A DNA stretch of 53,550 nt, counting the filler, from Sphacelaria rigidula (taxonomy: Eukaryota), in NCBI GenBank assembly GCA_964200075.2. It is 2 parts of 2 records of this genome, joined end to end, with 100 filler letters (N's around TTAATTAATTAA, not from the genome) between each part and the next. Parts side by side here need not be neighbours in the genome. Positions count along the whole stretch, not along the records: positions 1 to 26,744 come from CAXNAA020000131.1; 1 more part is not named here. One strand, 5' to 3'. The notes below the pieces were generated by a model. It worked only from the letters and a program-made list of their open reading frames with translations, ran no database searches and was not told the DNA's origin. Positions 1-36,947 of this stretch are shown here, piece after piece (the first letter of the stretch is position 1; each line of letters begins with the position of its first letter). Made by a program: the position numbers and the translations under genes.

Positions 1-190
1 GCCATCATGCTTACCGCAAAAAAAACGCAAGCGCGCAAAAAAAACGGTAACCTGGTTGCCTAGCTTACGCAGTGAGTAACGTGCTTTATAGCGCCATCGC
101 CAACCTACGCCAACCTACGCCAACCATCGGGGGTCCGCCCCTACAAAGCCGGGACGGAGCACGCCGGGTTGTTGCCGGACCAGGCTGAGG
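1..190 (+). repeat. Family A repeat, 3' part
   Basis: CGGTAACCTGGTTGCCTAGCTTACGCAGTGAG...CCCTACAAAGCCGGGACGGAGCACGCCGGG matches 26925-27100 and 3640-3720. Confidence 0.85.
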
Positions 191-699
191 GTGAGAGGGC
201 GGGGGGGGCGGGAGGAGGGAACAACAGTGCAGGCAGGCAACCGCAAAATCATCAACAGGAGCAGCAACACACCTGCGCCAAACATCTAGGGCACGTGAGG
301 GAGCAACGGACAAAACACAACCGCCCGTGTAGTACAAGAACGGGCACTGTTGAGATGCGTCGAAGAGTTCGAACACATCCGAACCCCCCGGACACTTGGA
401 GAAGCAACTGGAAAGCCACGATAACCTCTACCATGCCGTGTAAACGACGAGGAAAATATGCGACACGACAGAAACACTTATAGAGGCGGTGAGGCGAAAA
501 CCCCAAAAGACAGTTGCACCGCGACTCACGAAGCCGTGACCATCGAACACCACAGCCGATAACGAGGTTGAAGGATATTTGGATATGCTCAACATGGAAA
601 ACGTAAGGAGCGAAAAAAAGTGAACTCAAACACCTTGGATGGTAGTAAGCGGTGCAATAGTTGAAAATACTTGCAAGAGAAACATTATTCAAGTATCCC

Positions 700-958
700 G
701 CGAAAAAGTATCGAGCCAATTAATTGCCTCCATAGGTGGGGTGCAATAATCGCAAATAGTTGCACTAGGGAAAAAAGTGTACTGCGAAAAATTATCAAAC
801 CAATTTGCCCTCGATAGGTGGTGCAATATAGCAGCAAATAATTGCACTAGGAAAAAAAGTGTACTGCGAAAAAGTATCGAACCAATTTGCCCTCTATATA
901 GGTGGTGCAATAGTCGAAAATAGTTGCACTAGGAAAAAGTGTACTGCGTAAAGTATTC
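700..958 (+). repeat. Three tandem ~83-bp subterminal repeats
   Basis: GCGAAAAAGTATCGAACCAATTTGCCC..ATAGGTGGTGCAATA..AAATAGTTGCACTAGGAAAAAAGTGTACT recurs at about 700, 785 and 867. Each unit contains the TIR-internal motif GGTGCAATA..TAGTTGCAC. Confidence 0.9.
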
Positions 959-1006
959 AGTTTTCCCCTTGGAGAAACTATTTCACACCCTGGACAATAC
1001 AATATG

Positions 1007-2395
1007 TAATATATATTGCCCGCTCAATATATCGAGGCGTCAGGTGGTCAATATATATTGGGCGAGCAATATGATGACACGAGAGAGGGTCAATATATAT
1101 TGTGCCATCAATATATCAAGGCTCGCGACATGCAATATATACCGACCGAACAATATATCACGACACGCGCCACCTCAATATATATTGGGCGAGTACTATG
1201 TTGGTGCGAGAAGGCACCAGTGTATATTTATCGGGCAATATACTTGCTGCCACCCGAGGTCAATATATATTGACGATTCAATATACTCGACACCCGAAGC
1301 GCCAATATATATTGGGTGGACAATACACGAGGGAACCGACGGTCAAAATACATGTTGATGTAGCAAAATATACTTATCTTCAACATATAGATTGGAAATT
1401 GTATTGGAATCAGTATTGTGGGCAGTTCTTTGTTCGCGGGCGCCATTCAAATACGTATTTTACATGCCGAAATGCTCAATGTATTCCTCCGCAAGCGTGT
1501 TCAATATATATTGGCTGCACAATAGCTATCCGATCAGCGTGCGCAATATGTATTGGAAAAAAAATACTTCTGCATGGTTTGCGTTCAATATATATTACGG
1601 TAACAATATGCTACGCATCGCCTCGGCTCAATATACATTGACATACATTACTTCAAGATCATGACACGAGCAATATATGTTGTTGCTTCAATGTCTCCGA
1701 GGACATCTCAACACAATATATATATTGAAAGGACAATATTCGCGCTGGCTCCAATAAAAAGTATCAGTATCATATTGGAACATACTATATTGTCCAGGGT
1801 ATAAGCAACACAGCCCCGGTGACCACAGGGGTACCAAAATGCGCATATCGACCCGCGTTTTCTGTCGTCGTGACGTTTAGCCAAGATGTTGATATTACAT
1901 GCTGGAAAGGGGATGGGCGGCCCCGCACCGGTGACCAGATAGATATCAGGAGGCATATATACCGGGTCGCCTCTTCTGTCATCATATTCTCCAACCAGTA
2001 TACATATATATATATATATATCGAACGCATTCAACAACTTTCCGCAGTAATGCACGCGAACTTCTGCGGCTCCCTTTAAAGCTTTTCCCAATCTGCACGG
2101 GCTCCGGCATCCATCGCGTCTTGATCTCTCCTAGAGCGTACACGATACTTATAATATCTAATATATATTGGCCGGCCAATACATTGTCACCCACGCAGAC
2201 CCAATATATATTGATGGAACAATATGTGTTCAACCCGTTAGTACCAATATATATTGGGCAGGCAATATGTATGCAGTCCCACGACATCAATATATATATT
2301 GGGCGCGGAATACGTGTGCAGTCTACGGGTACCAATATATATTACACCGGCAATATATCGCAAAATTCCAATATGATCGACTAATATATATTGGA
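1007..2395 (+). repeat. Periodic array of palindromic CAATATATATTG plus CAATAT half-site with unique spacers, in three blocks
   Basis: Unit starts: 1007, 1049, 1091, 1133, 1176, 1218, 1261, 1303, ~1346; then 1502, 1544, 1586, 1629, 1671, 1714; then 2159, 2202, 2245, 2288, 2333, 2382. The period is 42-43 bp except for the last two intervals. Confidence 0.9.
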
Positions 2396-3205
2396 AACAT
2401 GTTGTATTGTCCAGGGTGTGAACTATTTGCAACTATTGCACCCCCTGTTATCCAAGGTGTGAGAATGAACAGCACACGAGTGTCGACTGAAAGGCGAAGA
2501 GGCTAGTCCACAAACGCCAACGAGCAATGAAAATTCGCCACAAGGAGAAAGAAAGACGCTAAAATTGCACATACAACTGAAACCGCCACGCTCTGTCTAC
2601 GACTCACATGTACATCACATTGTGAATCTGTGTCTGCACGTGGGGGAAAGATCTCAGATGAACATTCGAGGAGGACGAAGGGTCCAAGGGAGACAGAGAG
2701 AAGTAAAAAAATGTATTCATACAACCGTACTCACCTCGTCCTGCCAATCAATCATCTACAAATCAGCGGGAGGTGGGGTGAGGGCAACAAGCAGATTATC
2801 ATGTACGCCTAAATTCGCCACGTCACGTCACACCCCGCCCGCTCGCCCGCCTACAACTCATACGCAAATCAGGAGAGGCGTACTCATCTGCTGCCGGCCT
2901 TAGTCATTCGAGCATTGGTCACGCATCCCTTCCGAAGCGGAGCACTGTTTCTACTCCTAGTCGACACCTCAACCATTTGGGCGCACATGATGTTTTCCCC
3001 TATACATCACATGATAATATTTCACATATCTTATCCCCTTCCTGCTTCGCCGTCTGAGGTCGTTATCTCTCTACTAGCATAGCGATCGTTTTCTCGGTAT
3101 TGTACTCTCTGGTGTACCGAACGATTCCATGTCACATTCGTTTGGTACCTCATCTCCTCTGATACGCCCAGTTCCTTGTGTATTGTAGTTCACACGCCAT
3201 CAATA

Positions 3206-3730
3206 GGGGGTATGTACTCAACATCTTGCGGGTCGTAGTAAAAAGACCGTTGGCCTCGCATCCCTACAAAGCCGAGACGGAGCACGCCGGGTTTTCGCCG
3301 GACCAGGCTCGCAACCATCAACAAGCAAAACGTCGTGATGTGTTCGACCGTGCGCACGGGAAGGGTGATCTGCATCCTGCTACGATCGTTCGGGCTGAAG
3401 CGCACTTGTTGATGGGATACGGATGGCAGCCTCGAATGAGTTGCTTCATTTTCTGGTATCGCCGCCTCCAGAGACAGCCAAGGCTCACACACTGCCTTAT
3501 GGGTATCTCGCCATTTCAACGACACGTAGTTCGAAACGTAGTACGATCATCCCATTTGCGCGGACTTGAGGTTCTCCACCTCGCACAAGGTGATCCAACT
3601 TGACCCCTATGGATACCGCGAAATAAACGGAAGTGAGGAAAAAATACGGTAATCTAAGTGCCTAGCTTGTGCAGTAAGTGGCGTGTTTTACACGGTCGTT
3701 GCCGACCGACGCCAATCCTTGAAGGGGGAC
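3206..3730 (+). repeat. Abundant ~500-bp dispersed repeat, family A (near-complete copy)
   Basis: The core CATCCCTACAAAGCCGRGACGGAGCACGCCGGGTTTTCGCCGGACCAGGCTCGCAA and downstream blocks align by eye with copies at 1-190, 26845-27100, 27538-27735, 36248-36750, 46036-46340 and 49890-50247 (minus). Confidence 0.9.
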
Positions 3731-5445
3731 ATCAATCCTAGGGGGGGGGGAACGAGGGAGGGGGGGAGGGGGGTAAGCGAAATCCATCATACACCAACGG
3801 AAAGAGAAAAATACTGAAGGGTACACGGGGCAGAATTTTCTCGAAAGCAAAAATGAAGCAATTTTGATCGAAGTGGGGGGAACAGGATAGGCCTCCTCAT
3901 GCGGGCGTTTCGGAGAAGGGGACAAAGTAAAGGTTAAACTTCAGGAGAGACGGATCTGATATAATAGCTTCGATCGAAAAAAGCTTGACGCATTTTTTTT
4001 CTGTAAATTACAGGAGAGACACAAATTTAATAACTCCAACTCGAAAATTCTCCATGCATATATATATTTACATATATAGTGTATTGCGACCTGTCCCCTG
4101 AAAAAACAGATGACACGAAAATTCTTCAATTTCAGAGGTTCTCCGAAGACAAAGGCTGCGGCTTGAGAGCTAGCTCCGCGGGGACAGATGCTGTGATTCG
4201 AAGCCAACTGTGAACATTAAGGTACATTCAATACAGTGCCTGCAAGTCAGACATGCTGTTTACAGATAAAATCCAGGTCTTCATCACAGCCCCTGGGGGT
4301 GTTCTCTTCATCTATCCCTACATGCTTTTCAACGCCATTCATCGCGATACTACCAGTTTTATCACGTGTCGTCGTTACTTTGAACCCTTTGACCGGCAGG
4401 ACGGGTCAACCGTCGATTCGGTATCACTTTCACTCGAAACATGTGGCCGGCGGAAGATCCCCTCTGAACGGTACGACAGTTGAGTGCACAGCGAAGCCGA
4501 CCCAACACTGGTACGTACGGGCGTGTTTTGAAGTACCCGTGATACAGTCAGTGAGATGGGGTCTGATTTGAAGGGATCTTGAAAAGGCTTGCTGGCGAAA
4601 ACCTCTCGCACGGGGGGGTAAGAATTTTCTATTTTCTTCTATCCTTACAGTACTTGGAGGAGAGTGCCACCGGGTTACCGTTAGGGCCGCGTGGAAAGGG
4701 CGACTGAAGCTGTTTCGGAACAGTACAGTGTTGGGGTTCCAATGACGCTGCTATGCCGTGGGAATGGAGCGGAGTTCCTTTGTCCATCAAATCTCCATGA
4801 AGCGGCTACTCGTTGCTTGTCGCCGACTATGCAGGGAAACAGGGCAACATATTCCGCTGCGGTATGGCAGGGCCACCTGGACGCGAGTCCTGTCCTTTAT
4901 TGTCATTTGCTTTCGATACTACTGTGGTACCCTACGGTACTGTCTGCGGTGCATAAGCAGCTCAGTACAGGCACACAGTAGAGTTAGTAGCAGGCGGTGG
5001 AGAAAGCTTGTAGTGGGCATACGAGTATGAAGAGCGAGTTTTTGGTGGGCAAATGGAGATAGGCAATAAGTCCAATACCTTACGCGGTGCATTAGACCCG
5101 GCTAAAGCAGCAAATTAGCCCCGGCTAAAGCAGTTATTCCACCACCCATCGTTCAGTGGTGTGAAGTTTTGCGCCGAACAGACAATAGCCCAGGAGTTCG
5201 GAACGGCAGCCGCGAAGGGAATGCGGCGCATGGACAAAGTACAACCCCGACCCCAAAAAAATAGGTCTGAACTCCCCGAACATCCCGTTAACTCAAATGT
5301 TTTTGAGGAGATCTCCCCAACGTACAGTAGCTGCAGCTGTGTCGTTGACACGGAAGCATGGGTTCTCTGTCACCACGGGTGTTAACCTCCGTCAACCACA
5401 AGCGTACGATACTCGCAGATAACACGGTATGATAGCTCGACTCAC

Positions 5446-5575
5446 CATTTGCCGCTATGATGAAGTCGAAGAAAGAAACCAGCCCCACTTTGGACGCCGG
5501 ACTATTTGGCTGGACGCCCAGGACGCGATACCCGCATGCCTCAGCATCCTCCCCGCTGCTTTGTTTGTTTCCCAT
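5446..5575 (-). CDS. GORASP: GRASP55/65 (Golgi reassembly-stacking protein) family gene, first coding exon; remaining exons not identified in the window
   Basis: Translates to MGNKQSSGEDAEACGYRVLGVQPNSPASKVGLVSFFDFIIAANG. This has a Gly2 myristoylation-type start and matches the start of the first GRASP PDZ-like domain (GY.VL.VQ.NSPA...GL..FFDFI). It ends at a GTGAG donor (5445-5441), phase 1. Confidence 0.9.
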
Positions 5576-6256: not shown

Positions 6257-9200
6257 ATGTTCATTTACCTGAGCAAAAAGATCGCGATCCCCAATGGCAC
6301 TAAGCTGGATAGTTTGGCATGGAACCCGGCGCAGGGCTGGATCGCCTGCGGGGGATCCAACGGTCTCACGAAGGTGAGCCACCAGTCTGAATGTGCTACT
6401 TATTCATGTTTAGATCACAGGGCAATCACGGTCCCGAGATTGAGCGGCGAGTGGGTCATGCCCCCACAACTCTGTGTAGTAAACTGCGGATGATGGTCGA
6501 TTTCGGAATAATTTCAGGGGATTTATGTCATTCGAACTGAAGGCGAAGCAGTCCATTCGAGTCCACTTATGCCCGTGCACCGCTTTTTGTACTGAGTTTC
6601 GTCGACGACTACTCCAGGAGAACATACCTCAGCCTACTTGTAGTCAAAAGGATAACGTGGTTGACCTCTACAAGCTCAGCCGTGGCCACAAAATGGGCAT
6701 ACCCAAGATACCGTTCGTTACAGCACGAAGTAGACGGAAGCACTCGCCGAAGTGCACTCGAGGGAGAACAAATTGTCAACTGTAAACGCGGGAGAATAAT
6801 AGAGAAAAGGGAAGAAGTACTCGTAAGAGGGAAATGCTGGGAAGAAAGGGGAGCGAAAAACAAATGAGGGAAATTGTACACGTCTGTTGGAAAGTGTTCA
6901 TCAACTGGTTCGCAACGAGTCCGCCCGTGGTCACAAGTTAAACGCCCCTGAGGCACATAAACGAGACCACTCACTGAGGGACAATCGGGTGGAAACAGGA
7001 CGAAAGGGGACAACACACACAAACAAAAAATCGTCAGATTCGCCAGAGTAAGAGAGGCGCCGATAGAACCCACGACAGAGTCTGCCAGAACTCCAGGTAT
7101 GAATGAGGACGTTCAAGAATTACAGATGCGGAAGCACGTTGCTACTCAACAATCTGAAAACCACACTATGATATGAGAGGCAAGCACTCTCACTCACCCA
7201 ACAAATCTGAAGGACAGGAGACACAAGTAATAGTACGAGCGCGAACGAACGAGAACAACGGAAGAGGTCGAGAGGAAAGTGAGCTAAGCTCGAGCTGCAA
7301 GCAAGATTGAGGGGTGGTTGATGACCAGATAAGGTAGAAATATCAATCTTCCCCCCCGCCCCCTCCCGCCTCTTGTCAGGGATAGCGGGTGTGTCCGAAT
7401 ACCCAAATCCGGACGGATACACGACTTCAACGCGTATTTCCGCGAATCCCAACTCGAAGCTTACAACGTACGCATCCAGACTGGATCCAATGAGTTCATA
7501 AAGGGGTTACATGTCGAACAGTCGACTGCAGTAAGGATTATAGCCTCTGCCACACGATCTGGACAAAAAGACTTTCAACGAGGGACTCCTCCACTATTAC
7601 TGGCCTCGTGCTCCACAAGTCCTTTCTTCTCACTTGTTACTATCACGGAGTGATCCTCAACAGATCACATCACGAGCCAGACAGCAAGGGGCCACACAGA
7701 AGGGGGCCATCAATCCAGGATCCCCTATCCCCTGCCACTGCTCCAATCATGCATGCGGTTACACTGAAACCTACGGCTTGGTATCATTTCGGCTACAGCA
7801 CCCTCAAAGCGAGTTCAAGACAGACGAACGAGCTTGACAACCAACAAAAACCAAGGCGAAATCGCATGCGCCAGATCACAAAGAAAAATCATACTCCGAC
7901 GCTAGTTTACTGTCAACCGCAGTTGACGCAGCTCCTTCAATACAAATTCAGGCGCAGAAGAGTGAATCTGCCAAGAGACTTCCACGTACGTTCTTCAGCA
8001 CCGAACCCATCCCGATCGACCAAAACAATGATTTCACCATTGTCATCCTCAGCGACGTGCACCAAAGCATTCATCCGACATTCACCTTGAGCATACGAAT
8101 GCTGAAGTTCATCTTTTAGTTCCGCAGTGATGTGCAACTGCGAGTCAGCATAGAAACGCAAATGAGTGACGTGGGCCGAGTGTATGGCGCCAGAAACAAT
8201 GCTCTGTACCGAATACACGTGAGCGTGATCGGCTCCGACCACTCCCCATGGACGGACATCAACTTTGGCGTCACACCTTGCCTGCGAACACGGGCATACA
8301 ATACGAAATATCCAACTGCAAATTTGGGCAACACAGCCTGGCCCTGAGCACGCTTGCGTTTGGTTTCGCGAGACACCGCGGCAGCAGCTTGCACTTCGTT
8401 ACAAAACCGCACTTACTCGTCTCAAACTTTGTCACGCAACATATCAGCATCCATGACATCGACGTTCCACTCGCCGCCATGAAAACAAAACAGCGCGGAA
8501 AACCTTGTACGCGGCGCATGCCCAAACACCACACAATACGGAGTGTTACGGTAGCGTTCACGAAAATAAGTATTCAACGCCCACTGAGCGGCTGGCAAAA
8601 CATCAACCCATTTAGACACCAGCCGTCTTTGTTCTAACAAAATCAACCGCAAAGCACGAACAACCTCTCTCATCATGCGTTCACAAGCACCATTCGACCA
8701 AGGGGTATACGCAACAGCAAGTTGGTGCTGTACCTTGGGCGCGTCGCTCAGCTGCGCGATTACTTGATTCTTGAAGTGCGTGGCGGTATCACTAACCCAC
8801 ACACGCGGCACCCCCAAAGTCTTGCACCAATGCAGCAAGTGCTTAGCCGTACCCTCCGCGGTGCAAGCCTCGGTCGGCTCCAACCAAACGAAATTTGTTA
8901 AACCATCCATGATGACCAAAACGTACCGAAAATCACCCTCATCAGGCAAACCGTTAGCACCTTCAGATCCGCTACTTCCGACGTACAGAAAACCAAAATG
9001 AACAACTCCACCTGGCGCAGTATCATGCACAGTATCGCCATACCGACGGGGTACAGTCGCTCCAGCACGAGTGTCTACACAATGCAAACACTGGCGAACG
9101 AAGTCGCGGACGTGGAAATCCATATGAGGCCACACACAGTATTCTTTCAAACGAAACAGAGTCGGCGCCACACCACGGTGACCAGCCGACNNNNNNNNNN

Positions 9201-12200
9201 CACCATCAAGCGAGTTTGTAGAGCCTGATCGTCCGACGGAATCCACAAACATCACTACTGCCAACACGCACGCGAAACAAACTATCGTCAGCCAAGGCAG
9301 CTTGAGCGAAAGTCGTAGGAAAAGAATGAACACCGTCACCGACATTTTTGCGCTGCGCGGTACGAATGACATGTAACGAGGGCAGCGAATCATCGGCATC
9401 ACACGGGCTGTACACAGTAACAGAACGAGCAGGCACGGTAGGAACCTTCACCCAGCGAGACAACAAATACCCCCAACAGTTGTGCTCTCCAGGGATATGT
9501 TCAATGGCATACCGATATTGACCGAGCACCCCTTTCCAATTTTCAAGCCGTTGTGCCATGGCCTTCGTCACCGATGTGACACACTCTTCAGGGTTAAAAA
9601 TGTACTTCCTTTGTCCAATAAGTAAAGCCCGTTATGGGGGATAGGCCGGACCTCGCCAACGGAGGTGCTCACGATATCATGGTTAGATTCGTTGAAAACA
9701 TATAGTTGTGGAGATGGCCACTGGAAAAATCAAAAATAAAATATTCGACCTACAACCGTAGAATCGTTGAGTCAAACATGGCCAAATTCTGACCAAATTC
9801 CGTCCAATCTGTACATTTCCGGCGGAATTTCGACGAGTTTGGCTTGTTTTGAAGTAATTGAAGGCTGCAATGTAAACGAGTGGTTTCGGACTAGGCGTAG
9901 CTATCGTATTCCAGCAATGAATCGGAGAAAAAGAGCCATTTACGCTTTTTTCGCGATTTTTCGCGGTTTTTCGGGTTTCCTGGATTCTTCTCTGCGTTCT
10001 GGTAGTGGCGCGAAATATGGTCATTTCTGGGCCGTGTGATCGTTTATCGGCCCGTTCGGGCACGCTGGCTGCTGCGCAAAAAGAAGAAAATAAAACGTAA
10101 TTCATCTGAAAAACCCGCAAGATTTCAAAAAACAAATATCGCCTACGGCATTGGACTCAGTTAAGGGTCCGTGTGATCATAAAGGACTTTGCTTATGGGA
10201 CAGAGGAAGTATTTAGGATTTCGATGATCGGTGAAAATGCGAACACCACCCCAAATCAAGTACTCTAGCCTTCGAAATGTATTAACTATAGCGAAACCTT
10301 CTTTTCCCACTGTCGCCCACCGCAACTGTGAACCCTTGAAGCTACCACTCAGAAAAGCCAACGCTTCGTGTGACATGTTTTTGAGCGAAATGCCACCACT
10401 AAACTCGCCGACAGGCACTTGCGTTAAAAACTACCCCAGTGGAAATCCGAAGTCTCTGGAAACATCAGAACAACGCATCCGAGGATGATACAGCGGCAGC
10501 GCTTGCGCCACCAAATCTTGCGCATCACACCATGCCCACACACGATCCTCCGTCCAAGCATCCTCCGGGATGATACGATCACGCGCCACCCGCTTGGTCC
10601 GACGCAAAGCCCCGACCATAAGTTGTTCCCAAAACACACGAAGTGGCGCACCTAATTTCGCCATGCGCGGAAGCGAAGCCCGCAACCCGTTCACCGACTG
10701 CAGTAACTGCATCAGCTCACTAGCGGTTTGAGGACGTTGCATATTGCTCAATCCTTGGATGCGGACGGAATCATGCGAAAAACTACCCTTGGAGTACACC
10801 TTACCACACCAAACCACTTCGCGGGCAAACAAGGTACACTTATGCGCAGCGACGAACAGACCAACACTTTCCAAACGGCCAATGTTATCGTCAAGGAAAG
10901 CTAACAATGCTTCTCCGGTTTCAGCAAAATAGAAAACGTCATCCACCCACACTTTACAGTTTAAACCTCGCAAAATGTCAGTCAGCACACCTTGGAAATA
11001 CGCCGTGGCGTTCAACATGCCCTGCGAGACACGAGTAGGCGTAAACAAACCGTCGGGCGTGACGATCTCGAATATCTCCTGAGCCTCCGGCGCCAGAGGC
11101 ATCTGCCAATACCCCTGTAGCAGGTCCACCTTGCCGAAGCATTGGGCTCCCAGCAACTCCCGCATGTCTTCTTGGCTTGGCATCACCCCTGGAGATTGTT
11201 CCACTTGCGCGTTCACCGCCTGATAGTCGCTGACCAAACGGAATGTGTCCCTCTCCGGCACCGCCATCGCCGGACCCGCCCACACAGCCTGGATGTTGCC
11301 AACTACTGAACCAAACGCTATCAAAGCTGCGATGCATGAAGCCGGCCACCCGGTCTTCACCGGATCGTAGCGTCGGGGCTTGGCTTTCACAGCCTTTGCA
11401 TGTGGCTTGAATTGCATCCTCATGGGCTCTACGCGCGCTGGCGGATCACCACATAGCGCGCGACGAAAGGTATCCACGCGACGAGCCAAGATATCACGCA
11501 GACGATAGGCGCCATCCGCGCTCAGGCCCTTCTGCCCGGCCTGCTGCACGCTATCCTCTAGCGCATGTTTTCTTGCACCTCTCTCCTCCGCAGAGTCCAT
11601 ATATATGTCGGGCCCCCATCGTCCAGATCCAGATCGCCACGCAGCAAGGTAGCTGGGGTTTTCCACGCCGGTTTGCACCGGCACAGCACGCGGGCGTAAC
11701 TTATCCAACGCCAGCGGGTACAAATCAATCCCGAGCTCCTTCATCGTCGCCATCCCAAACAGAACAACGTTGTCCCTGCCGGACATGACAGCAAAAGTGA
11801 TGGGATGCAACTCCACAGCCCTCCACGGCGTACGCACGCTAACAGCAATCGGCACCATTTTGTGTGTAACCGTCACGGGAGCACCCGTGGCGGTCTGTGC
11901 CATTTGCGCTCCATTTTCGAAGGGAATCTGCAGCTGAGCGCTGCCAAACTGCGAAGACATTTGTTCTGGCAACCCCACACCGATCGATGTGAGCACGGAC
12001 CCAGAATCCAGAATAACGCGGGCCATGAACGAATCTATGGAACCAGACAAGGAAAGGTCTGTGCGTAAACATTCTTCGGTGCGATCGACAGGTACCACGC
12101 CTGCCGAAGAACCCTGGTCGGTACCAAGAGTCACCTGATGCCAAGGGCTGCGCTCCAGTACTGGGCATCGGTAATTGAGGATCGGCGGTCCACCCAGACC

Positions 12201-15200
12201 ACGTCGCCGAATATGCAGACGGCGGTGTTACAGCCATCGCAGCAGTGGAAGATGCACCAGACACGGATCCTGCCTGGCCGAGGGGTTGCGAACTATTCGC
12301 TCCAGCACTCCCCACCGAAGTATTTGCATTTCTGTCCGCCCCGACACGGACGAACCATGAGATCCAGAGTCACCACCTGATGACGTAATGGAAAAAGGAG
12401 CAGCAGAGGAGTCATCATCCGCCGCCGATTACTTGCTACCGCGACCGCCGCGCCCACGTCCCTGGTTGGCACGACCCCGTCCACCGTGACGACCGCCTCG
12501 AGATCCTGATAAATGTCGCGCATTGCCCTGAGCAGCGCCTTGAGCGCGAGTCTTGGGGCAGTCCTTAATCAGGTGTCCGTTGTCGCCGCAGTTGTAACAC
12601 GCGCGAGTGGACGACGTTCGCGAAGGCGGCTGCTGTTTCTGCTGCTGTTGTTGTTTGCGGCGCGCACCACCTGCACTTGCCGCAGAATCGCGCCGGCTCT
12701 GCGCCTCAATGAACTTCCAAAGGTCGACGGCATCAGATATTTTGTTCAACACCATCGTCGGATTCTTTTCCCATCCGGCTACATGCGCTAGTACACTTCC
12801 GGAGGTGGAATCCCCGTCCACGAAAGCTGTGGAAACCGACTCGGACGGGCTTGGCAACCAGCTCCTGTCCTCCGCACGGTACATGGCTTGCACCATGAGG
12901 TTTCCAGCGTAAAACGTTTCCATCGATCAATTGACCACCATCGCTCTATCTTTGACGGATATTCCACAGCTTTGCGGCATAGTAAAAACTTTATGCCGGT
13001 CTGCTGCAGCCCGCGCGGTGTTATGTTTGCTACCGGTCGTGGTGTACCCGGCATGCTGCTTCATAGCATCTAGCGATTCGTCGGGGGTCATAGCACGACA
13101 GTCCTTGTACATGCCTTCGAAGCACCGATGAATGTATGTAGGGATGAGTTGAACTATGCTCACCCTAGCATGCCGTACAACTTCTTGAGCATTCGCGAGG
13201 TACAAATGCTCTATGTAGTCGAGATATTTGGCGTAGAAAATTCTTGATGCTTCCTCGATCCACACCTTGCCATACATTGGCGGGTCTAGCGGCTCACCTA
13301 AGACCAGCGGCGCTGTCGCCGCTTGAGCCATGTTGTCAAAAATTCGAACACTTCACGGAGAGACTCTTGCCTGACTTGTGCGTCCACCAGCCCACGAAGC
13401 GTTCTCCACTGCTGTGCGCTTCAAGTTGTCTCCCTCCGACCGCGGGCCAAACTGGCTTCCAGCTGCGGCCCCTCTCCTCAGCCAAACTCCTCCAACAGAG
13501 TGCCGAAAAGAATACATAGATAATCTAGCCTGTGCCAGACGATCTGGTCAAGAGAACTTTCAACGAGGGACTCCTCCAGTATCACTGGCCTCGTGCTCCA
13601 CAAGTCCTTTCTTCTCACTTGTTACTATCACGGAGTGATCCTCAACAGATCACATCACGAGCCAGACAGCAAAGAGCCACACAGAAGGGGGCCATCAATC
13701 CAGGATTCCCTATCCCCTGCCACTGCTCCAATCATGCATGCGATTACACTGAAACCTACGGCTTGGTATCATTTCGGCTACAGGATGCAGATATATGTCA
13801 ACGATATGTTTTCAGTGAAATTCGCAGGTTCAGACCCCAGGGTTCACTCCTGTAGTGAAACTGGTATACCAACGGCCCGTTTGGTCGGATTTCGTTCGTT
13901 CGAATCCCAAAACACATATGTATATATGTTATTCAGTTTCCGTCGTCGGAAGAGTGAGGACGCGAGCAGCCACATACAAGTCCGATGAAAGCCAACGGAG
14001 TGCTAATTTAGTACTGGACAATTAAGTGCAACAAAAGGCAATGCCAGAGGAGGGACGGCTTATCTTCTCGAGGCTTTACGGACTCAAAAAAGGGAGTCGA
14101 GGCGTTGAAAGTATCAAAAACATACAGATACGGGAAAACACCATAGAGTGGTTCTACGGCGTGAGTGCACATTCTCCCCCGGGGCTCTTCACCTCAGGAG
14201 CCTCTGAATGACAAGCATCTGGGCCTTAGTGTACAGCCCCAGAAAATGTTTGGGCTACAGAGTGCACGCACCCCCACCCTAGAATCGCTCCATAGTGTGT
14301 GTAGGGCTGCGTGTTGGTCAGCTTAATCAATACAACATACGCCGAAGATTATTATAGCCAAGATGCTAATATCTACGAGTGTGGGCAGCTCACTACGACG
14401 CACTTACAGTAGGATGAAGAGTGATCGCCGGGGGAGGGCGTCTCCAGCGTCTCCCCGAGATGGCGGCTAGGGTCACCTGCATGCCGTAAGACTGCACCAG
14501 ACGATGCTCACTCTCTTCGGTAGATTTGGGCATGAAGTTGGGCATACTTGTTGTGATCCAGGGGTGCCTGCGACCTCGTTGTTTCAAGTTCTTTGGGATG
14601 GCACACCTGCTGGTCTAGGGTCACGAGATCCAACATGTACAGGTAAGACGGGTCTCGTCGGGCTCTCGCGCTCCCCGTCCTTGTCGGAACGGTCTTCGCC
14701 GCGAAACAGATCTCTATCGTTTGTGCATGTTGTGACAGCAATCTCTGATATTGACATGTAAAGGTTGGCTTCGATATGAGCAGTGAACTGGTGTCGATAC
14801 TTATTGGTACGGTGCAGCGTCCAAACGAGCGCCGCGAGGGCATGAGCCCGCCGAAGCGCCTCCCTCCCTGCCTGGTGGAGATCAGCCAAAGGTGTCGCTC
14901 GAGGCAAAAAAGGAGAAACTGCGCGGCTTGTTGTCTCTTTGAACTCGAGGTCACTACTTTGATAGTATAGGGGCAACATTCTTCGTGTACGAAGTTCAAT
15001 TTCCATTATGTCGAACGACCTCTGCTGGTGAGCGCCCTTTCAGTGCTGGAGACGCTGTTCGTGCCCGAGGTTAACTGCTTGGAGGACGCTGCTGCCGCTG
15101 TCAACAGCAACATCTTTCGCGCCACACCACAGTTCAACGACGACACTAACATATCATTTGTGAAAATCATGGTGAAAGGTCACAATATACCCTTATTCAA

Positions 15201-18200: not shown

Positions 18201-21200
18201 ACCTTTGGAGGCAAGGGAGCAGGGAGGAGAAGGATGAGTGACAGCGGGCGTGTGTGATCGTGCAAGCCGTTATTGGTTGGTTGCTGCTCTGCCTCTGTCT
18301 CTCCGTCCCTCCGTCTCTGTCTTTCTGTCTGTCTGTCCCTGTCTTCGTCTGTGTCCCTGTCATTCTTGCGCCCCGCAGTCGCGAACGACTACGAATGCAA
18401 ATGAGGACCCTGAAGGCACCGTCAATCTAATGAGACGCAGTATAATAAATGAATATCATACATGGTATATGTACTCCAGGCACCATCAGAGTTTGTTTGT
18501 TTCCGAAAATCAGAGTACGGCTATTTCATGCCATCATGACATTTCCCCCAGCGAATAAAAGGACAAATTTATCGGGTTTTTTTTCTTTTCTGAAAAATCA
18601 TAATAGGTGTGCGTGACCTGGAATGCTACATACTCGAAGCTCACGACGTGCGACGAGCACGGCCTGATCATCGTGTGGATGTTGCATAAGGGGCTGTGGT
18701 TCGAGGAGATGATCAACAACCGGAACAAATCTGCCGTGAGGGATATGAAGGTCAGCTGTGTAAACCATTGCAGTGTTCCCAACACCCATGCGTCAAGCGT
18801 GTGTCGTATTCCACGACTACTGCGGCAGTGCAGTATAGCCCCCCGATGGCCTGGGTTCAAGGAAGACCTGGGGGTCTCTGGAACCAGCTCACCGGTCCTT
18901 CCTTGAGTCGGCATAAATGATCGAATAGACGAAGCTGCTGTGGGAAAATTTAGCATGACGACCAAGGCCGTCACGGAGAGTTGGAAGCGACATTCCGTCC
19001 GTATTCTTCGTGCATCAATGTCCACGGCGACGAAAAACCTCGTATACCTACCGGGGAGAGATGGGTTTATCCCGTGAGACCACGGACTCGTCACGAGGTA
19101 GGGAAGGGGTTCAAAGTGCGATGAATTAAAAAAATAACACATGAGCAATAAATGAAAAAACCTCGTGACCTCATCTTTTTCAGAGATTTAACTTTCCTGC
19201 ATGTCATAGTTTTCCTTCGGGTTGTGGGCAACATGCAGCGTATTCTATGAACCGAATTTCCAGCTAACCTGCGCAAGCGTTACCTGTCCGAGCGCGGCCA
19301 TTTTTGTCGCGTGCCTGCCGGTGTGCGTGCGTCAACATTACTATCCATCGCAGTGGACCAGCAATGGGCAGAAAATCTGCATCATCTACGCGGACGGGGC
19401 AGTTATCGTGGGTTCAGTGGATGGCAACCGTCTGTGGGGCAAGGAGTTGGACATGGGTCTCCTTAAAGTCGAGTGGGCTCCAGATGGCCGAAGGTTCGCA
19501 ACTCGTGCTCGCTCGCGGTCTTGCATTCTTGCGCAAGCTCCATCACATCATGTGGATATATATCTACCTTGGATATGGACGTCCATTTGCGATACCAATC
19601 TGGGCCATCAGATCTATCTGGGATAGCCATATGAGATTTGGACATGCATCTGGAGCATGAACATCCATCTGTCGGATATGAACGTTCCAAAATGACATGC
19701 CGCAAGCATACCGTTTCCAACATGGATGCCCATATCCCACATGAACATTATAGATGGACGACACTTTTTACGATAGCCCCCCGCAGAAATCAGCCAAAAC
19801 GTGTCACGAAAAAAATGGCCATACAGCTCCTGATGTTGGGTTCAGGCTGCATTAAGCGCCTCATATGGGCGACATTGGCTAGAACGAACCCAAGCGTGAG
19901 AATTCCCCGCTGCTCGCTGTGCTCGGCTTTTCCCATTTCGATTTAAGTAAAGATTTTGCCATCCCAAACCATGCCTTTTTGGGGGGGGGGGGCTATCGTA
20001 GAAAGTTTCGGACATTGATATCCCAGCTAGACGTCTCAGGTGGATATGATATGCAGATTAGTATTCCAGATCGGTGTGATATCCCACATGAAGGTTGCAC
20101 AATAATGCGAGGCTCCCTACCCGCCGCTGTTTGTCGTGAGAACTATACACTAGAACGTTGCTCAGAAACTTTATTTTTATCAGTTGTCGGCCAATCCGCT
20201 CGTTGCCTCGCACGTGCGTTTCTCTCACCTGGAGCTGTGCTGTCGCGTCATCAATGCTCTGTCCCTCCTTCGACAGTCGCGGAGCATAGCTGACACGCGA
20301 TGATTCTTTGTCATGCGCGAACGGAACTGGTGGTATTTTCTGCCAGCGATATTTTCTGCTGCCGAGCATGTAAACACCCCAAAGGCAACATTTTGTTTTT
20401 CTTGGCTTTTTTATTTGCACTACAGATCTTTCCTTCTTGGTGTATGATTTCATGTTGTGCGGCATTTCTTCCGTCAATACACCATGGCATGTCGTACCAC
20501 GTGCGCCCTCCTCAGTACAACGTAGACTAACGACGTTATATTTGAAACGCCGCTCTACTTCTACTCTGGATTTCTCCTCAGACACTAGAAATGGGTGGTT
20601 TGTAACACCGCTGCACGCCTAGACAAGACTGCGGATGTTGTCTTCCGAGTATTTAGAAGCGATACGTCAAAACAATGTCACCGGGATACTAGCTTGCCAC
20701 TGTAATGCGAGTTGGACCATACGCATCCTCCCTTCAACAAACCACGCTTTTGGGGGGGGTCACAACTTTTTGTGGTACAGGATATTGTTTGTAACGACGA
20801 CCGGCGAAGTGCTCATCTACGACGCGCAGGGCAAGCGCGTGAGAGCCATGACTTTACCCGAAGGCTCAGAGGTCACATCAGGATTGGGGTCGAAAACAAC
20901 ACCTTCTGCTGGGTCGGACGGCAAAAACGATGATGACGATGACGAAGATAGTGAGACTAAAGGAAGTGGGTAAACCGCTCACCAATGAGCCTGGGGTGGG
21001 GGGGAAGGATGCAAAAAATGATTGACGACGCAGATGGTGCATTCAAGCCAGATTCACTCGTCGCAGAGTGCGCCACGACGGAGGAGCAATATCTGATCCG
21101 TACCCTTAATTCAACGCTGCGTCTTCTCAGCGCGAGAGAATGCATCAAGAGGCATGCTGCTTACAAGTAATACATACACCACATTACCTGGAGGACGATG

Positions 21201-24200
21201 GTTCCCTATATAAATATATAAATAAATATATATATATATATATAATCGCTCATCGTCGGCCTGCTGTTCACGTATCGTTCGTATGTGTAAAGGACAGTAC
21301 GCCATGTTATTTGTTCAAACATGTTTCGAATATTCTCTCGCTGACTGAATGAATGAGACATGACGGAATCATGCGTTTCGCCATCCCTAAAAACTTCCCT
21401 TCACCGCGCCTGCTATTGAGTGTGAGTCTCGGGTCCACAGACGTACTTGTTGAAATGCGCCCCCTCAAGAAAGCCGCCCCCTAGGCTAACATCTGGCAAT
21501 TGAAGGAGCTTAAAGTAAGCCGCTGACTTCGAAGTGCTCTCTGTATCCGCACATTCAAACCGTCGAATGCGTCGCGGGAAACACGCCCTCTATTGCGGTG
21601 CTTGTCCGTTCATGTAGTTTCCACCTTGGCCATTCTGAATAGCCCGCCTACACACGTGAAAAAAAAACGCTTTTTCGGCAGGCGAAGGGAAGGACGGCAG
21701 CAGCGACCGCAAACCGAGGGGTATGGTGGTCTCAATGGAGTGGTATGACGGGGCGGAGGGATTGCTGCACCAGCGTGTTCCGACGCTCTGTATCGCTCTC
21801 GCCGGTGGTACTATCCAGCTCAGCAGAGGGGTCGACGATCTGGACCCTATTGTGGTGAATTGTCACATGGAAATCCGTCAGGTGAAGCCATGCTTTTACA
21901 ACCGTTATATCTCAACGATTGAACCAATGACTTGCCTGATGTCCCGGAACCAAGAAAGTTGTGCGGGCTGTCGCTCGGGAACCGAATTTATCGAAGAGGT
22001 TAGGAGGAATACCGGACCGAGGCTGAGGAAAATAATCTTTAGTTGTGCGGAATGTCGCTCGGGAACCACAATCATCGAGAAGGTTTTTTGGAATACCCGA
22101 CCGAGGCTGAGGGAAAATAATCATTCAAGAGCCATGCGTTTCAAGTAATAGTTGATCACGCTGGAGTCGCGGAGCACGGTGACATGGAAACGTTGCCCTG
22201 TGGATGTTGTTCTTCTTTCCTCAAGCATTTCACGGTACAGTCTGTCCACAGAGAACTGGCACCGCCCTCGGGCAAGGTTCAGAACGCCGCAAAATCCAGC
22301 GGGCTTGATTGGACGAAGGCGATTTGGAATTTTCCCCCGCCATTCACTTCAGACACTCGAGGGAATCCGCGGACCAACCAATCTTCTGGGAATAAGCAGC
22401 GCAATTCCCGCGCATTCCTACTCTTGACATAAATACATCCTGCAAAGCCGGAAATGTAGGATACTACATGTTGTATGCATGTAACGAGCAATGCTGGTCT
22501 CTACCAGACGTTGGCGCAACGCTGAAAATATACACCCACCACAAATTTTGCACAAACCTGGAAACCTCTCGATAGCCCTCCTCTCGTCCTACTCTTCGTT
22601 ATCCTCTCGTGATCACACCCTCACTTTCCCTAAGCCATGACTTCACGTACCCCCGTTGTTCCCCTTGTTCTACCGGCGCGCTACTGCTTACTAGCCGAAA
22701 GTCTGACCCTGACCCCGATGACAAAAACGCCTCTGTCACCCACTTCGTGGTTCTCTTGCCGTACCTCACAAAAAAAGGCTCGATGGAACAAGAACGGAAC
22801 GGTTTTGGCCCTGAGCGGGACGGCACGCGCAACCTTCAACAAATCTGGCCAGAGTCGAGATCTCTCCGTGGTCAAGATGTACTCCCCTTACGGAATCATG
22901 CTTCGCACGCTAAAGGTTTTGAGTAAAAGAAGCATAGCACATCACCAACCACTCGACCGCCACACGCCAAGCACGCCACGCGCATGGGGTTGTTGTTGTC
23001 GGAGGAGCGAGTCGTTCGGTAGGGCCGAATCAAAGGCACGTCAAACCCTCGACACTACACACCGGAGCTTCGAGCGAATAATGACTTAGTCTTTCGGACT
23101 TTGGATGATGACACGTGTTTGATCTGGCTCGCCAATAATGTGGGAAGCAAGAAAAATCCCCGTGCTTCAAAGTCGCTTCGCTTTTTCCGAGGTCAATGAA
23201 TCCGCATAGGATCCTCGTACCAAAGACATCTACAACACTGACATGCTCTGGACAATGTTTCCTAGCGGCTGTTTATCCTGGTAGGGATAGAACAAAAAAC
23301 GGAGTATTTTCGGGCCGCTTAAACGGTTTAAGTGATCCAATTGGGGTTAACGCCACGCTGTAATGTTTTCAATTAACCTGCTTGCGCTGTTTGTCCGGTC
23401 CTGCGGGGGTGTGTTTGATTGTATGTTTGATCCACTTTTGTGGTTTTTTGTCGGTGGGCGATGTTTGTGACTGTGTCCATGCTTACCTCGCGGGTTCCTC
23501 GATCGAGCGTACTGCCCGTGCAATACAAGATGTTTCGGCGGAAAACAGGCAGTACGGAAGAAGCTCCCCGCGTAGTCTGTATTACAGACACACAATAGTC
23601 GCTTCGTTGAGTTTGAGGCGGACCGATAGACAAGCTGTCGTGTAGAATGTTGAACCGTCGGGTACGTATCGAGGAACAGGTGCATTAGTCGCTGCAAAGC
23701 AGAGTTTTTCTGTCGACCATGGTTAGGGATGTTTTTCGTCACTGGCAGCTGCTTCAATGGATTAAGTGTTCGACTCCTTCATTGTGGACAGTCCTTTCTA
23801 TACCTAAGACGGTCGGGTGGCCAGACACTATTCCTGCAACCTCATCTTGCCGCGGGTACTGAACCCACGACTGACGAGAATCCAAAGCTGGGGGGACGTG
23901 ACCGAACCTTCTAAACAATACAGAATGTAGAGCACAAAATGGACCAAGTGTGTACTATCCGTTTTTTTCGACTGGTGCTATAAACGCAGGTGCCGGGTAA
24001 CGGCATCAGCAGTCTGGCGTGGGAAGGGGGTGGACTGAGAATCGCTCTCGCAGTCGATGCCTACATCTACTTCGCAAATATTCGGTGAGAGATGTTGTCA
24101 CCAAGTCGTAACCACCAAGCATTCGCTGCCAGTAATTGACTCGTCGCAGGGGGCGGGGAGAGGGGATGCGAGAGGGTTTCATCACGCCGACTTCAGGAGA

Positions 24201-26512: not shown

Positions 26513-26744
26513 GTGTGGCGGGTACCGGCGAAGGTCCTTACTACACCTACAGCTTGGTATCAACACTTGAAAACGGTGTTCACCCCAAGGAACGTCCGGA
26601 GGTCACTCGACTACATAGTGCATGCTGTTGCCTACACGTCTACTCACTTGCGTCATCACCGTCATCTTTCCCCCAACCCACCCCAACACCCAAAAAGACA
26701 AAAAACACAAGACATAAAGGCACAAGAGGATATAATGTAATCAA

Positions 26745-36765: not shown

Positions 36766-36800
<35 letters not shown>

Positions 36801-36900: not shown

Positions 36901-36947
<47 letters not shown>

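What the first reader, a model, noticed from the sequence alone, without database searches (positions are those of the whole stretch)
1007..2395. Repeat-spacer array (12-bp palindrome + 6 nt + 6-bp half-site + 18/19-nt unique spacer; 42-43 bp period) in a eukaryotic intron
Seen in sequence: about 20 units in three blocks (1007-1370, 1502-1745, 2159-2395). Examples are 1049 CAATATATATTG-ggcgag-CAATAT-gatgacacgagagagggt, 1261 CAATATATATTG-acgatt-CAATAT-actcgacacccgaagcgc and 2245 CAATATATATTG-ggcagg-CAATAT-gtatgcagtcccacgacat. The two AT-rich boxes and both spacer lengths are conserved, but the spacers are GC-richer and mutually different, so this is not an ordinary satellite in which all positions decay alike. 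Mixed 42/43-bp periods break any reading frame, so the constraint acts on DNA or RNA. Established knowledge: 42 bp is about four helical turns, and arrays of conserved repeats with variable spacers template guide RNAs in prokaryotic systems (CRISPR; dual-repeat TIGR arrays). Inference: this is either a phased protein-binding or DNA-bending scaffold of a transposon family, or an array processed into ~42-nt RNAs. No associated effector gene is visible in the window.
Basis: partly seen in the sequence, partly recalled or inferred. Interest (0 to 1): 0.88.

Follow-up and report, generated by a model that had tools for sequence, protein, structure and literature searches.

The report
Binding-site array inside a jumping-gene copy
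The repeat-and-spacer pattern is real, but it is the body of a very abundant, non-coding cut-and-paste transposon of a brown-alga-like genome, and its conserved AT-rich boxes are most likely docking sites for the transposase, not templates for guide RNAs.

Summary
About 21 units of 42-43 bp (12-bp palindrome, 6 nt, CAATAT, 18-19 nt) lie only in 1007-2393. The boxes are about 90% conserved and the spacers are close to random.

The array fills a 1,437-bp element (984-2420). It has 23-bp terminal inverted repeats and a perfect 8-bp target-site duplication, AACTATTT. Laying public contigs shows a very high-copy family with unlike flanks at exactly these ends. It also occurs in a second organism, with the same spacers in the same order. 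Fixed spacers, no effector gene and a eukaryotic host reject a CRISPR/TIGR-like guide array.

The half-site CAATAT also forms the inner part of the terminal repeat. Box spacing is held although spacer sequence is saturated. This copy's own mutations hit boxes and spacers alike.

Best reading: a non-autonomous hAT-like transposon. Its termini are CACAC...GTGTG, as annotated for Ectocarpus hAT-2, and its target duplication has a central TA, as in Buster-type hAT elements. Its phased boxes would be transposase-binding sites kept by selection for mobilisation. No transposase gene or binding assay was available. This is an unusually regular example of an ordinary kind of feature.

The parts
976..983 (.). 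Left copy of the 8-bp target-site duplication AACTATTT
   Evidence: Read directly. It is identical to 2421-2428. Contigs of other copies diverge from the window exactly before 984 (table 7).
984..1006 (+). Left terminal inverted repeat, CACACCCTGGACAATACAATATG. Its inner part is two adjacent half-sites (CAATA, CAATAT).
   Evidence: Inverted-repeat pair I1. The 15-mer CACCCTGGACAATAC is found exactly at 986 (+) and 2404-2418 (-). A CAATAT occurrence at 1000 is listed.
1007..1388 (+). Array block 1: nine 42-43-bp units, the last (1346) degenerate
1389..1501 (+). Degenerate stretch between blocks 1 and 2, with only box-like remnants
   Evidence: Read. The family covers it at high summed depth (table 2).
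1502..1757 (+). Array block 2: six units (1502, 1544, 1586, 1629, 1671, 1714/1716)
1780..1801 (-). Inner, diverged copy of the right end (2 mismatches in the 15-mer), preceded by the same box layout as the true right end
   Evidence: (I8). Contigs of other copies and of organism B run across it (table 8, records 4-7 and 13), so it belongs to the family's structure.
1802..2158 (.). Non-array core of the element, with a (TA)n run at 1999-2021
   Evidence: It is as highly repeated as the arrays (table 2). There is no Pfam hit in its ORFs.
2159..2393 (+). Array block 3: five units plus a terminal palindrome at 2382
2398..2420 (-). Right terminal inverted repeat (reverse complement CACACCCTGGACAATACAACATG)
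   Evidence: Loose ends of other copies begin behind 2420/2422 (table 7).
2421..2428 (.). Right copy of the 8-bp target-site duplication AACTATTT
   Evidence: Read directly.

Best explanation
Positions 984-2420 are one copy of a 1.4-kb non-autonomous cut-and-paste DNA transposon. It is most likely of the hAT superfamily with Buster-type target choice, and it has multiplied to very high copy number in this stramenopile (brown-alga-like) genome.

Its body is an old tandem array. Each 42-43-bp unit offers three copies of the half-site CAATAT: two as a 12-bp palindrome, and one more 6 nt downstream. The same half-site forms the inner part of the terminal inverted repeat.

Inferred mechanism: the DNA-binding domain of the family's transposase, supplied in trans by an autonomous relative, recognises this half-site. 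In hAT elements that domain is a BED zinc finger. Palindromes would bind two domains cooperatively. The four-helical-turn period puts all sites on one face of the DNA, so an oligomeric transposase is captured with high avidity and the two ends are brought together.

Copies that keep the boxes and their spacing are the ones that get mobilised. In the element's lineage, boxes and spacing are therefore preserved while the spacers drift to randomness. Once inserted, a copy such as this one decays neutrally.

Shown here: the array, the element's ends, the target duplication, the high copy number, and the fixed spacers. Inferred: the superfamily, protein binding, and the role of phasing.
For: 1. Transposon anatomy. 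There is a 23-bp terminal inverted repeat (22 of 23 positions matching) and a perfect 8-bp target duplication.

2. Family. 8,715 (X1) and 8,420 (X4) contig records lay on 500-2900 at 80% identity or more. Summed depth is about 4x10^4 to 2x10^5 inside 986-2443, against 72-87 in the X1 flanks. At 984, 67 loose ends were listed in X1, and 77 plus 53 at 2420/2422, with only 0.37-0.40 agreement, meaning the flanks differ.

3. Fixed spacers. Organism B (X10) has pieces covering 983-1314, 1302-1597, 1629-1866, 1894-2186 and 2201-2404, with 12-24 other letters each and the same order (table 8).

4. Box constraint. Boxes are 12-16 of 16 identical per column, against near-random spacers. Spacer CpG observed/expected is 1.26, so CpG decay does not explain the contrast. 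Periods stay at 42-43 although spacer sequence is saturated.

5. Common origin of units. Three spacer pairs share 14 or more of 24 positions, against 0.116 expected.

6. Link between box and end. CAATA-CAATAT lies inside the terminal repeat, next to a palindrome, at both ends. 29 of the window's 40 CAATAT sites lie in the element.

7. Neutral decay in place. table 3 shows 40 of 295 difference rows. Of the 20 shown that fall in the arrays, 7 are in boxes and 13 in spacers. Boxes make up about 42% of a unit. In 6 of the 7 box differences, the majority letter is the consensus box letter.

8. Superfamily. The TSD is 8 bp with a central TA. Flank consensus in other copies reads ..ATATTC before 984 and GAATATTT behind 2420. 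The Buster-type consensus nnnTAnnn is given in PMC3517528 (passages). [quoted passage not shown]

9. Precedent. The Hermes BED domain binds short subterminal repeats. A palindromic pair is bound cooperatively, exact phasing is crucial, and the left and right ends are asymmetric (PMC10368747, passages).
Against: No transposase gene, autonomous copy or protein-binding data could be examined, because no genome is held for this window.

The terminal motif CACAC departs from the YARNG motif I recall for hAT ends. An 8-bp TSD is also produced by KDZ/Zisupton elements, which in Ectocarpus have tandem-repeat-rich termini.

All units point the same way across the whole element, instead of mirroring at the two ends. 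The array fills about three quarters of the element, far more than the about 100-250 bp of subterminal sequence that hAT elements are reported to need.

The target-site consensus rests on 30-letter consensus strings of low overall agreement. The box-versus-spacer count rests on only the 40 of 295 difference rows that were shown.
Confidence: 0.68

Rival explanations
1. The mechanism is the same, but the element belongs to another 8-bp-TSD superfamily such as KDZ/Zisupton, not hAT. The boxes would then be bound by that transposase or by an accessory protein.
For: The Ectocarpus KDZ families all have 8-bp TSDs and 'complex termini featuring tandem repeats', including a 2.2-kb non-autonomous one (PMC12477816, supplement 1). 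The terminal motif CACAC is not the usual hAT motif (recalled).
Against: The KDZ termini listed there start with GGGG or CAGTA, not CACAC. The one family listed with CACAC-GTGTG termini and about 21-bp TIRs is a hAT. The central TA in the target fits Buster-type hAT.
Confidence: 0.2
2. The array is a functionless minisatellite carried by a miniature transposon, as in tandem-repeat-containing MITEs. The boxes survive only through mutation bias or chance.
For: Vestigial spacer similarity shows an origin by tandem duplication. Extra TA steps inside two boxes show slippage. MITEs with internal tandem repeats are known (PMC3879986, abstract as shown in the search listing).
Against: The contrast of about 90% box identity with about 28% spacer identity, inside one array without CpG depletion, cannot be neutral. 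Spacing is kept to within 1 bp despite saturated substitution. The box half-site recurs in the terminal repeat.
Confidence: 0.07
3. The boxes are bound by a host factor, or act purely through DNA mechanics. TA-rich flexible steps every four turns could give bending, nucleosome exclusion, or a regulatory or scaffold-attachment role, with no transposase contact.
For: The boxes are TATA-like and phased at about four helical turns.
Against: This copy's boxes have decayed like its spacers, so there is no sign of host-level selection at this locus (table 3, partial view). The shared half-site in the terminal repeat points to the element's own recognition system.
Confidence: 0.1
4. The array is transcribed and cut into about 42-nt RNAs that guide a protein, in the manner of CRISPR or TIGR.
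For: It has a superficial repeat-spacer layout with two conserved boxes and two spacers per unit.
Against: The spacers and their order are inherited unchanged across copies and in a second organism. Unit differences between copies are whole-unit deletions or duplications (tables 5 and 5c). No spacer matches the rest of the window better than shuffles do. No Nop, Cas or nuclease domain was found in 119 ORFs. TIGR units are 36 nt with two 8-12-nt spacers and box C/D motifs beside a Nop protein, in prokaryotes and their viruses (PMC12045711, passages). No such array was found in 185,579 species genomes or in IMG/VR. There is no Rfam match.
Confidence: 0.02

Closest known systems
hAT transposons with subterminal repeats (Hermes, Ac/Ds, Tol2, Tag1), especially the Buster group and Ectocarpus hAT-2_Ec32 / hAT-2_ESi
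   Same: 8-bp target duplication with a central TA. Short (about 21-23 bp) terminal inverted repeats with CACAC...GTGTG tips, as annotated for hAT-2_Ec32. Many short repeated motifs inside the ends, one palindromic pair next to the terminal repeat, and asymmetric left and right ends. Non-autonomous copies far outnumber autonomous ones.
   Different: The motifs form a strictly periodic 42-43-bp array of composite sites (palindrome plus half-site), all in one orientation. They fill about three quarters of the element, not a scatter of 4-6-bp motifs in the outer 100-250 bp. No transposase was seen, and sequence identity to hAT-2_Ec32 could not be checked because the library file was not readable.
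CACTA / En-Spm subterminal repeat regions bound by TNPA
   Same: Reiterated motifs inside the ends act as cis-determinants of transposition. They are bound by an element-encoded DNA-binding protein and are conserved, while the sequence between them is not (PMC2613891, passages).
   Different: CACTA elements make 2-3-bp target duplications and end in CACTA. This element makes 8 bp and ends in CACAC. CACTA motifs occur in both orientations, which I state from memory.
KDZ (Kyakuja-Dileera-Zisupton) elements of Ectocarpus
   Same: 8-bp target duplication and tandem-repeat-rich termini, and non-autonomous derivatives exist.
   Different: The listed termini are GGGG... or CAGTA..., with long low-identity terminal repeats. 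Here the terminal repeat is a crisp 23 bp.
Tandem-repeat-containing MITEs (DTC84 of the clam Donax trunculus) and foldback elements such as Tetris
   Same: A high-copy non-coding transposon whose core is a short tandem array (PMC3879986 and PMC4079207, abstracts as shown in the search listing).
   Different: From what I recall, and not checked here, those arrays are satellite-like with whole units alike. Here only 18 of about 42 positions per unit are conserved.
CRISPR and TIGR arrays
   Same: Conserved repeats alternate with unlike spacers of fixed length. As in TIGR, there are two repeats and two spacers per unit.
   Different: The host is a eukaryote, the spacers are fixed in all copies, the array is carried inside a transposon present in thousands of pieces, and there is no effector gene. 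The unit is 42-43 nt with 6 plus 18/19-nt spacers, against 36 nt with two 8-12-nt spacers.

Membership tests
Class II cut-and-paste (TIR) DNA transposon | Terminal inverted repeats | tested here: met
   984-1006 against 2398-2420, 22 of 23 positions complementary.
Class II cut-and-paste (TIR) DNA transposon | Target-site duplication directly outside the ends | tested here: met
   AACTATTT at 976-983 and 2421-2428, 8 of 8 identical.
Class II cut-and-paste (TIR) DNA transposon | Many copies with unrelated flanks ending at the same bases | tested here: met
   8,715 records laid in X1. Loose ends at 984 and 2420/2422 show 0.37-0.40 agreement.
Class II cut-and-paste (TIR) DNA transposon | A transposase, in this copy or in an autonomous relative | not testable with these tools
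   No ORF of the element hits Pfam. No genome is held.
hAT superfamily | 8-bp target-site duplication | tested here: met
hAT superfamily | Target consensus nTnnnnAn (Ac group, recalled) or nnnTAnnn (Buster group, PMC3517528) | tested here: met
   The window's TSD is AACTATTT. Flank consensus strings of other copies are ..(A/G)AAT(A/G)TTC and GAATATTT (table 7). Both have TA at positions 4-5. This is weak evidence because overall agreement is only about 0.4.
hAT superfamily | Short TIRs (about 10-25 bp) beginning YARNG (recalled) | tested here: inconclusive
   The length of 23 bp fits. The tip CACAC does not fit YARNG, but it equals the tip annotated for Ectocarpus hAT-2_Ec32.
hAT superfamily | Transposase with BED finger, DDE/RNase-H fold and hAT dimerisation domain | not testable with these tools
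   No autonomous copy was available.
KDZ / Zisupton | 8-bp TSD with complex tandem-repeat termini, and a KDZ transposase | tested here: inconclusive
   The TSD and the repeat-rich body fit. The termini are unlike those listed. The transposase is not testable.
CACTA / En-Spm | 2-3-bp TSD and CACTA termini | tested here: not met
   The TSD is 8 bp and the termini are CACAC.
CRISPR array | Spacers differ between copies or strains because they are acquired | tested here: not met
   The same spacers in the same order occur in other copies and in organism B (table 8).
CRISPR array | Adjacent cas genes, in a prokaryotic or viral genome | tested here: not met
   0 of 119 ORFs scanned carry Cas domains. 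The window carries eukaryotic genes: GRASP55/65, WDR35 and an LTR retroelement.
TIGR-Tas | About 36-nt units with two spacers of 8-12 nt flanked by box C/D motifs | tested here: not met
   The units are 42-43 nt with spacers of 6 and 18-19 nt. TIGR features are taken from PMC12045711.
TIGR-Tas | Nop-domain Tas gene beside the array | tested here: not met
   There is no Nop hit among the 119 ORFs scanned.
TIGR-Tas | Processing into unit-length RNAs | not testable with these tools
   No run on record as RNA was available.
Tandem-repeat-containing MITE / satellite | Units alike over their whole length | tested here: not met
   Only the 12+6 box positions are conserved. Spacers are 28% identical against 26% for shuffles.

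The most novel reading that the evidence does not exclude
The fixed 'spacers' are not junk. On this reading, transcripts of the array are cut at the boxes into about 42-nt RNAs that an element-encoded protein uses with fixed specificity, for instance for self-recognition, homing or silencing evasion. That would be closer to bridge RNAs or snoRNAs than to adaptive CRISPR. My evidence rules out adaptive spacer turnover, but it contains no RNA data and so cannot strictly rule out processing.

A milder and more likely novelty (about 0.3) is that the roughly 60 phased half-sites act as a high-avidity 'transposase sponge', which would explain the family's huge copy number.
Probability: 0.02. Interest if true: 0.9.

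Novelty: new member of a known kind. Interest (0 to 1): 0.3.

Why it matters
Most of the value here is corrective. A eukaryotic sequence that looks like a CRISPR/TIGR array turns out to be a transposon's array of protein-binding sites. This shows how to tell the two apart: check whether the spacers are fixed across copies, and whether the repeat recurs in the terminal inverted repeat.

For transposon biology it is an unusually clean natural experiment. About 20 composite sites are held at a four-turn period while everything between them is randomised. It therefore marks exactly which bases and which spacing the unknown transposase reads. It could guide footprinting and structural work on how hAT-type transposases assemble on long ends, and on how non-autonomous elements outcompete their autonomous partners.

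It also supplies a high-copy repeat family to be masked or annotated in brown-alga-like genomes.

Tried and rejected
- Own genome: none is held, so no genome-wide copy census or search for an autonomous copy was possible.
- Metagenome scan with the unit motif: 119 loci, each with a single chance match. In a script, 0 of 119 had three boxes at unit spacing or the terminal repeat.
- IMG/VR: the unit motif gave 6 single matches. The two-palindrome pattern gave 0. The 15-mer from the terminal repeat gave 50 single matches, which I took as chance. So no link to phaeoviruses or giant viruses was seen.
- GTDB species genomes: 0 matches to the double-unit pattern. Two Clostridia MAGs have just two palindromes 42 bp apart, which looks like an operator pair and is unrelated.
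- Rfam: only a sub-threshold mir-310 hit (20 bits against a gathering score of 48).
- RNA folding: z = -3.7 and -5.9. This is the trivial result of every palindrome pairing with every other, so I do not count it as evidence of a structured RNA.
- Expression: no RNA holder was listed. X6 is only guessed to be RNA and may be low-coverage DNA. Its lack of cover on the flanks and its pieces of the family therefore say nothing about transcription.
- Spacer targets: for 18 spacers, the best match elsewhere in the window (mean 13.7 matching letters) equals that of their shuffles (13.8). Only this 52-kb window could be searched.
- Intron claim: tblastn with six stramenopile GRASP proteins found exon 1 only, and nothing convincing in 1-5443.
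- Literature: the 12-mer box occurs in 0 papers. 0 papers hold Phaeophyceae, 'miniature inverted-repeat' and hAT together. Three 12-letter motifs from the box and the terminal repeat were absent from the four readable supplements of PMC12477816. Its two TE-library FASTA files could not be read, so a match to a curated Ectocarpus family remains open.
- Earlier scan notes: there was nothing on this genome or sequence. A word search gave only analogies.
- An empty-site allele joining 983 to 2421 was not among the 15 of 203 joints shown. This is no evidence either way.

Full report
**The observation.** The array exists as described. The 12-bp palindrome CAATATATATTG (up to 1 mismatch) occurs 16 times in the window. 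All 16 lie between 1007 and 2393, against 0.14 expected from shuffles. Cutting the sequence at these starts gives units of palindrome, 6 nt, CAATAT and 18-19 nt, with periods of 42 or 43 in blocks 1 and 2. Block 3 has periods of 43, 43, 43, 45 and 49; one 45 is due to an extra TA step inside a box. A relaxed pattern finds 19 complete units, all on the + strand and all inside the finding, with none elsewhere in 53.5 kb in that orientation. Over the 16 best units, every box column has the same base in 12-16 units. Spacer columns peak at 4-11 of 16. The spacers are 58% GC in a 50% GC window.

**What the array sits in.** The array is flanked by CACACCCTGGACAATACAATATG at 984-1006 and by its inverted copy, with one mismatch, at 2398-2420. 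Directly outside these lies the same 8-mer, AACTATTT, at 976-983 and at 2421-2428. That is the signature of a cut-and-paste transposon insertion of 1,437 bp. It inserted into another, low-copy repeat: 82-bp tandem units at 646-972, with one inverted motif at 2421-2446.

**Other copies.** No genome is held for this window, so I laid public contigs on 500-2900.
- In the best holder (X1), 8,715 records laid at 80% identity or more. In an independent study (X4), 8,420 did.
- Summed depth jumps from 72-87 in the flanks to about 4x10^4 to 2x10^5 between 986 and 2443. It drops back at 2444. The tool warns that this is not a copy number, but it means a very abundant family.
- Records of other copies leave the window's sequence exactly before 984 (67 records in X1) and behind 2420 or 2422 (77 and 53 records). 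They run into mutually unlike sequence there (agreement 0.37-0.40).
- Identity classes in X1 are 992 / 2,170 / 3,373 / 2,180 records at 99% or more, 95-99%, 90-95% and under 90%. The family therefore has copies of many ages.

**Are the spacers variable between copies?** No. A second organism (X10, organism B) holds pieces covering 983-1314, 1302-1597, 1629-1866, 1894-2186 and 2201-2404. Each has only 12-24 differing letters, and the order is the same (table 8). Thousands of pieces in X1 and X4 align through the spacers. Differences between copies are of two kinds. Some are whole-unit skips, for example 45, 77 or 108 bp. One is an extra unit between 1302 and 1314, which is itself the same in 36 records and in organism B (tables 5, 5c and 7).

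**What the boxes are.**
- The half-site CAATAT is part of the terminal repeat itself (…GGA-CAATA-CAATAT-G), and a palindrome follows within 1-5 nt at both ends. 29 of the window's 40 CAATAT sites are in the element.
- Single half-sites all point one way, so the two ends are asymmetric beyond the terminal repeat plus palindrome.
- A third, diverged right end at 1780-1801 shares the box layout of the true right end but not its spacers. Other copies, including those of organism B, run across it. The composite structure is therefore ancestral to the family.
- The units descend from one another. Three spacer pairs (1049/1176, 1091/1133, 2245/2290) share 14-15 of 24 variable positions, against 0.116 such pairs expected. 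Overall spacer identity is slightly above shuffles (0.281 against 0.256; 17 of 2000 shuffles reach it).
- Spacer sequence is thus near saturation, yet the boxes are about 90% intact and unit length is held to within 1 bp. CpG observed/expected in the spacers is 1.26, which excludes CpG decay as the cause.
- Where this copy differs from the family majority, 7 of the 20 array positions shown are in boxes and 13 are in spacers. Boxes make up about 42% of a unit. In 6 of the 7 box differences, the majority letter restores the box (table 3; only 40 of 295 rows were shown).
- The constraint therefore acted on the element's lineage, that is on its ability to be mobilised, and not on this locus.

**Mechanism (inferred).** The known parallel is the subterminal repeats of hAT and CACTA elements. 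The Hermes BED finger binds short repeats scattered in the ends. It binds a palindromic pair next to the terminal repeat cooperatively, needs exact phasing, and treats the left and right ends differently (PMC10368747, passages read). TNPA binds the reiterated subterminal motifs that are cis-determinants of En/Spm transposition (PMC2613891, passages read). I propose the same here. The partner transposase's DNA-binding domain reads CAATAT. Palindromes take two domains. The four-turn period lines the sites up on one face of the DNA, giving a high-avidity platform that could explain the family's success.

**Superfamily.** An 8-bp duplication narrows the choice. The window's duplication, and the flank consensus of other copies (..ATATTC before the element and GAATATTT behind it), both have TA at positions 4-5. 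That is the Buster-type hAT pattern nnnTAnnn (PMC3517528, passages). [quoted passage not shown] KDZ families there also make 8-bp duplications and have tandem-repeat termini, but with other tips. I could not read the library sequences. The hAT assignment is therefore a lead supported by three features, not a demonstrated membership.

**Guide-array tests.** Beyond the fixed spacers:
- No spacer matches the rest of the window better than its shuffles do.
- 0 of 119 ORFs scanned carry Cas, Nop or nuclease domains. Pfam found only an LTR retroelement, WDR35 exons and a GRASP exon.
- Rfam has nothing above threshold.
- The array type is absent from IMG/VR and from one genome each of 185,579 prokaryote species.
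- TIGR units differ in size, spacer symmetry and motifs (PMC12045711, passages).

**Context.** The GRASP exon's best named relatives are stramenopiles, including the brown algae Choristocarpus (80% identity over the exon) and Ectocarpus. The element lies 3 kb downstream of that exon on the gene's strand, and no later exon lies in the window. An intron location is likely but unproven.

**What remains open.** Still unknown are the autonomous partner, actual protein binding, whether the array is transcribed, and whether the family is already in a curated repeat library.

Noticed in passing
window 646-972 and 2421-2446: About four tandem copies of an 82-89-bp unit carry the motif GGTGCAATAGT..AAATAGTTGCA. 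One inverted copy of that motif lies right after the insertion. The transposon therefore landed inside another repeat-bearing, possibly MITE-like, low-copy element (summed depth only 99-130 against 72 in X1).
   Followed up: partly
window 8422-13331, minus strand: An LTR-retrotransposon-like coding region: a gag zinc knuckle (12429-12923), reverse transcriptase (10431-12134), and integrase zinc-binding and core domains (8422-9402). The order is gag-RT-IN.
   Followed up: no
window 5444-5575, minus strand: First exon (residues 1-43) of a GRASP55/65 Golgi stacking protein gene. The closest named relatives are stramenopile algae. The rest of the gene is not in the window.
   Followed up: partly
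window 19210-26740, plus strand: Several exons of a WDR35/IFT121-like intraflagellar-transport gene, covering the first and second beta-propellers. They are separated by introns of 1-2 kb.
   Followed up: no
window 36057-36101, 43576-43613, 36769-36799, 36901-36947: Interstitial telomere-like repeats, (GGTTAG)7.5 and (AGGGTT)6, and two pure G runs of 31 and 47 nt close together.
   Followed up: no
window 7-186 versus 3262-3309 and 3609-3715: Two dispersed repeat segments (107 nt at 75% identity, 48 nt at 94%) flank the region in swapped order. They are probably pieces of another repeat family.
   Followed up: no
L176 2001-2054 and L177 2001-2054 (Clostridia MAGs): The same 14-bp palindrome ACAATATATATTGT occurs twice, 42 bp apart, in an intergenic stretch of two related gut Clostridia. 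It looks like a pair of operator sites and is unrelated to the algal element.
   Followed up: partly
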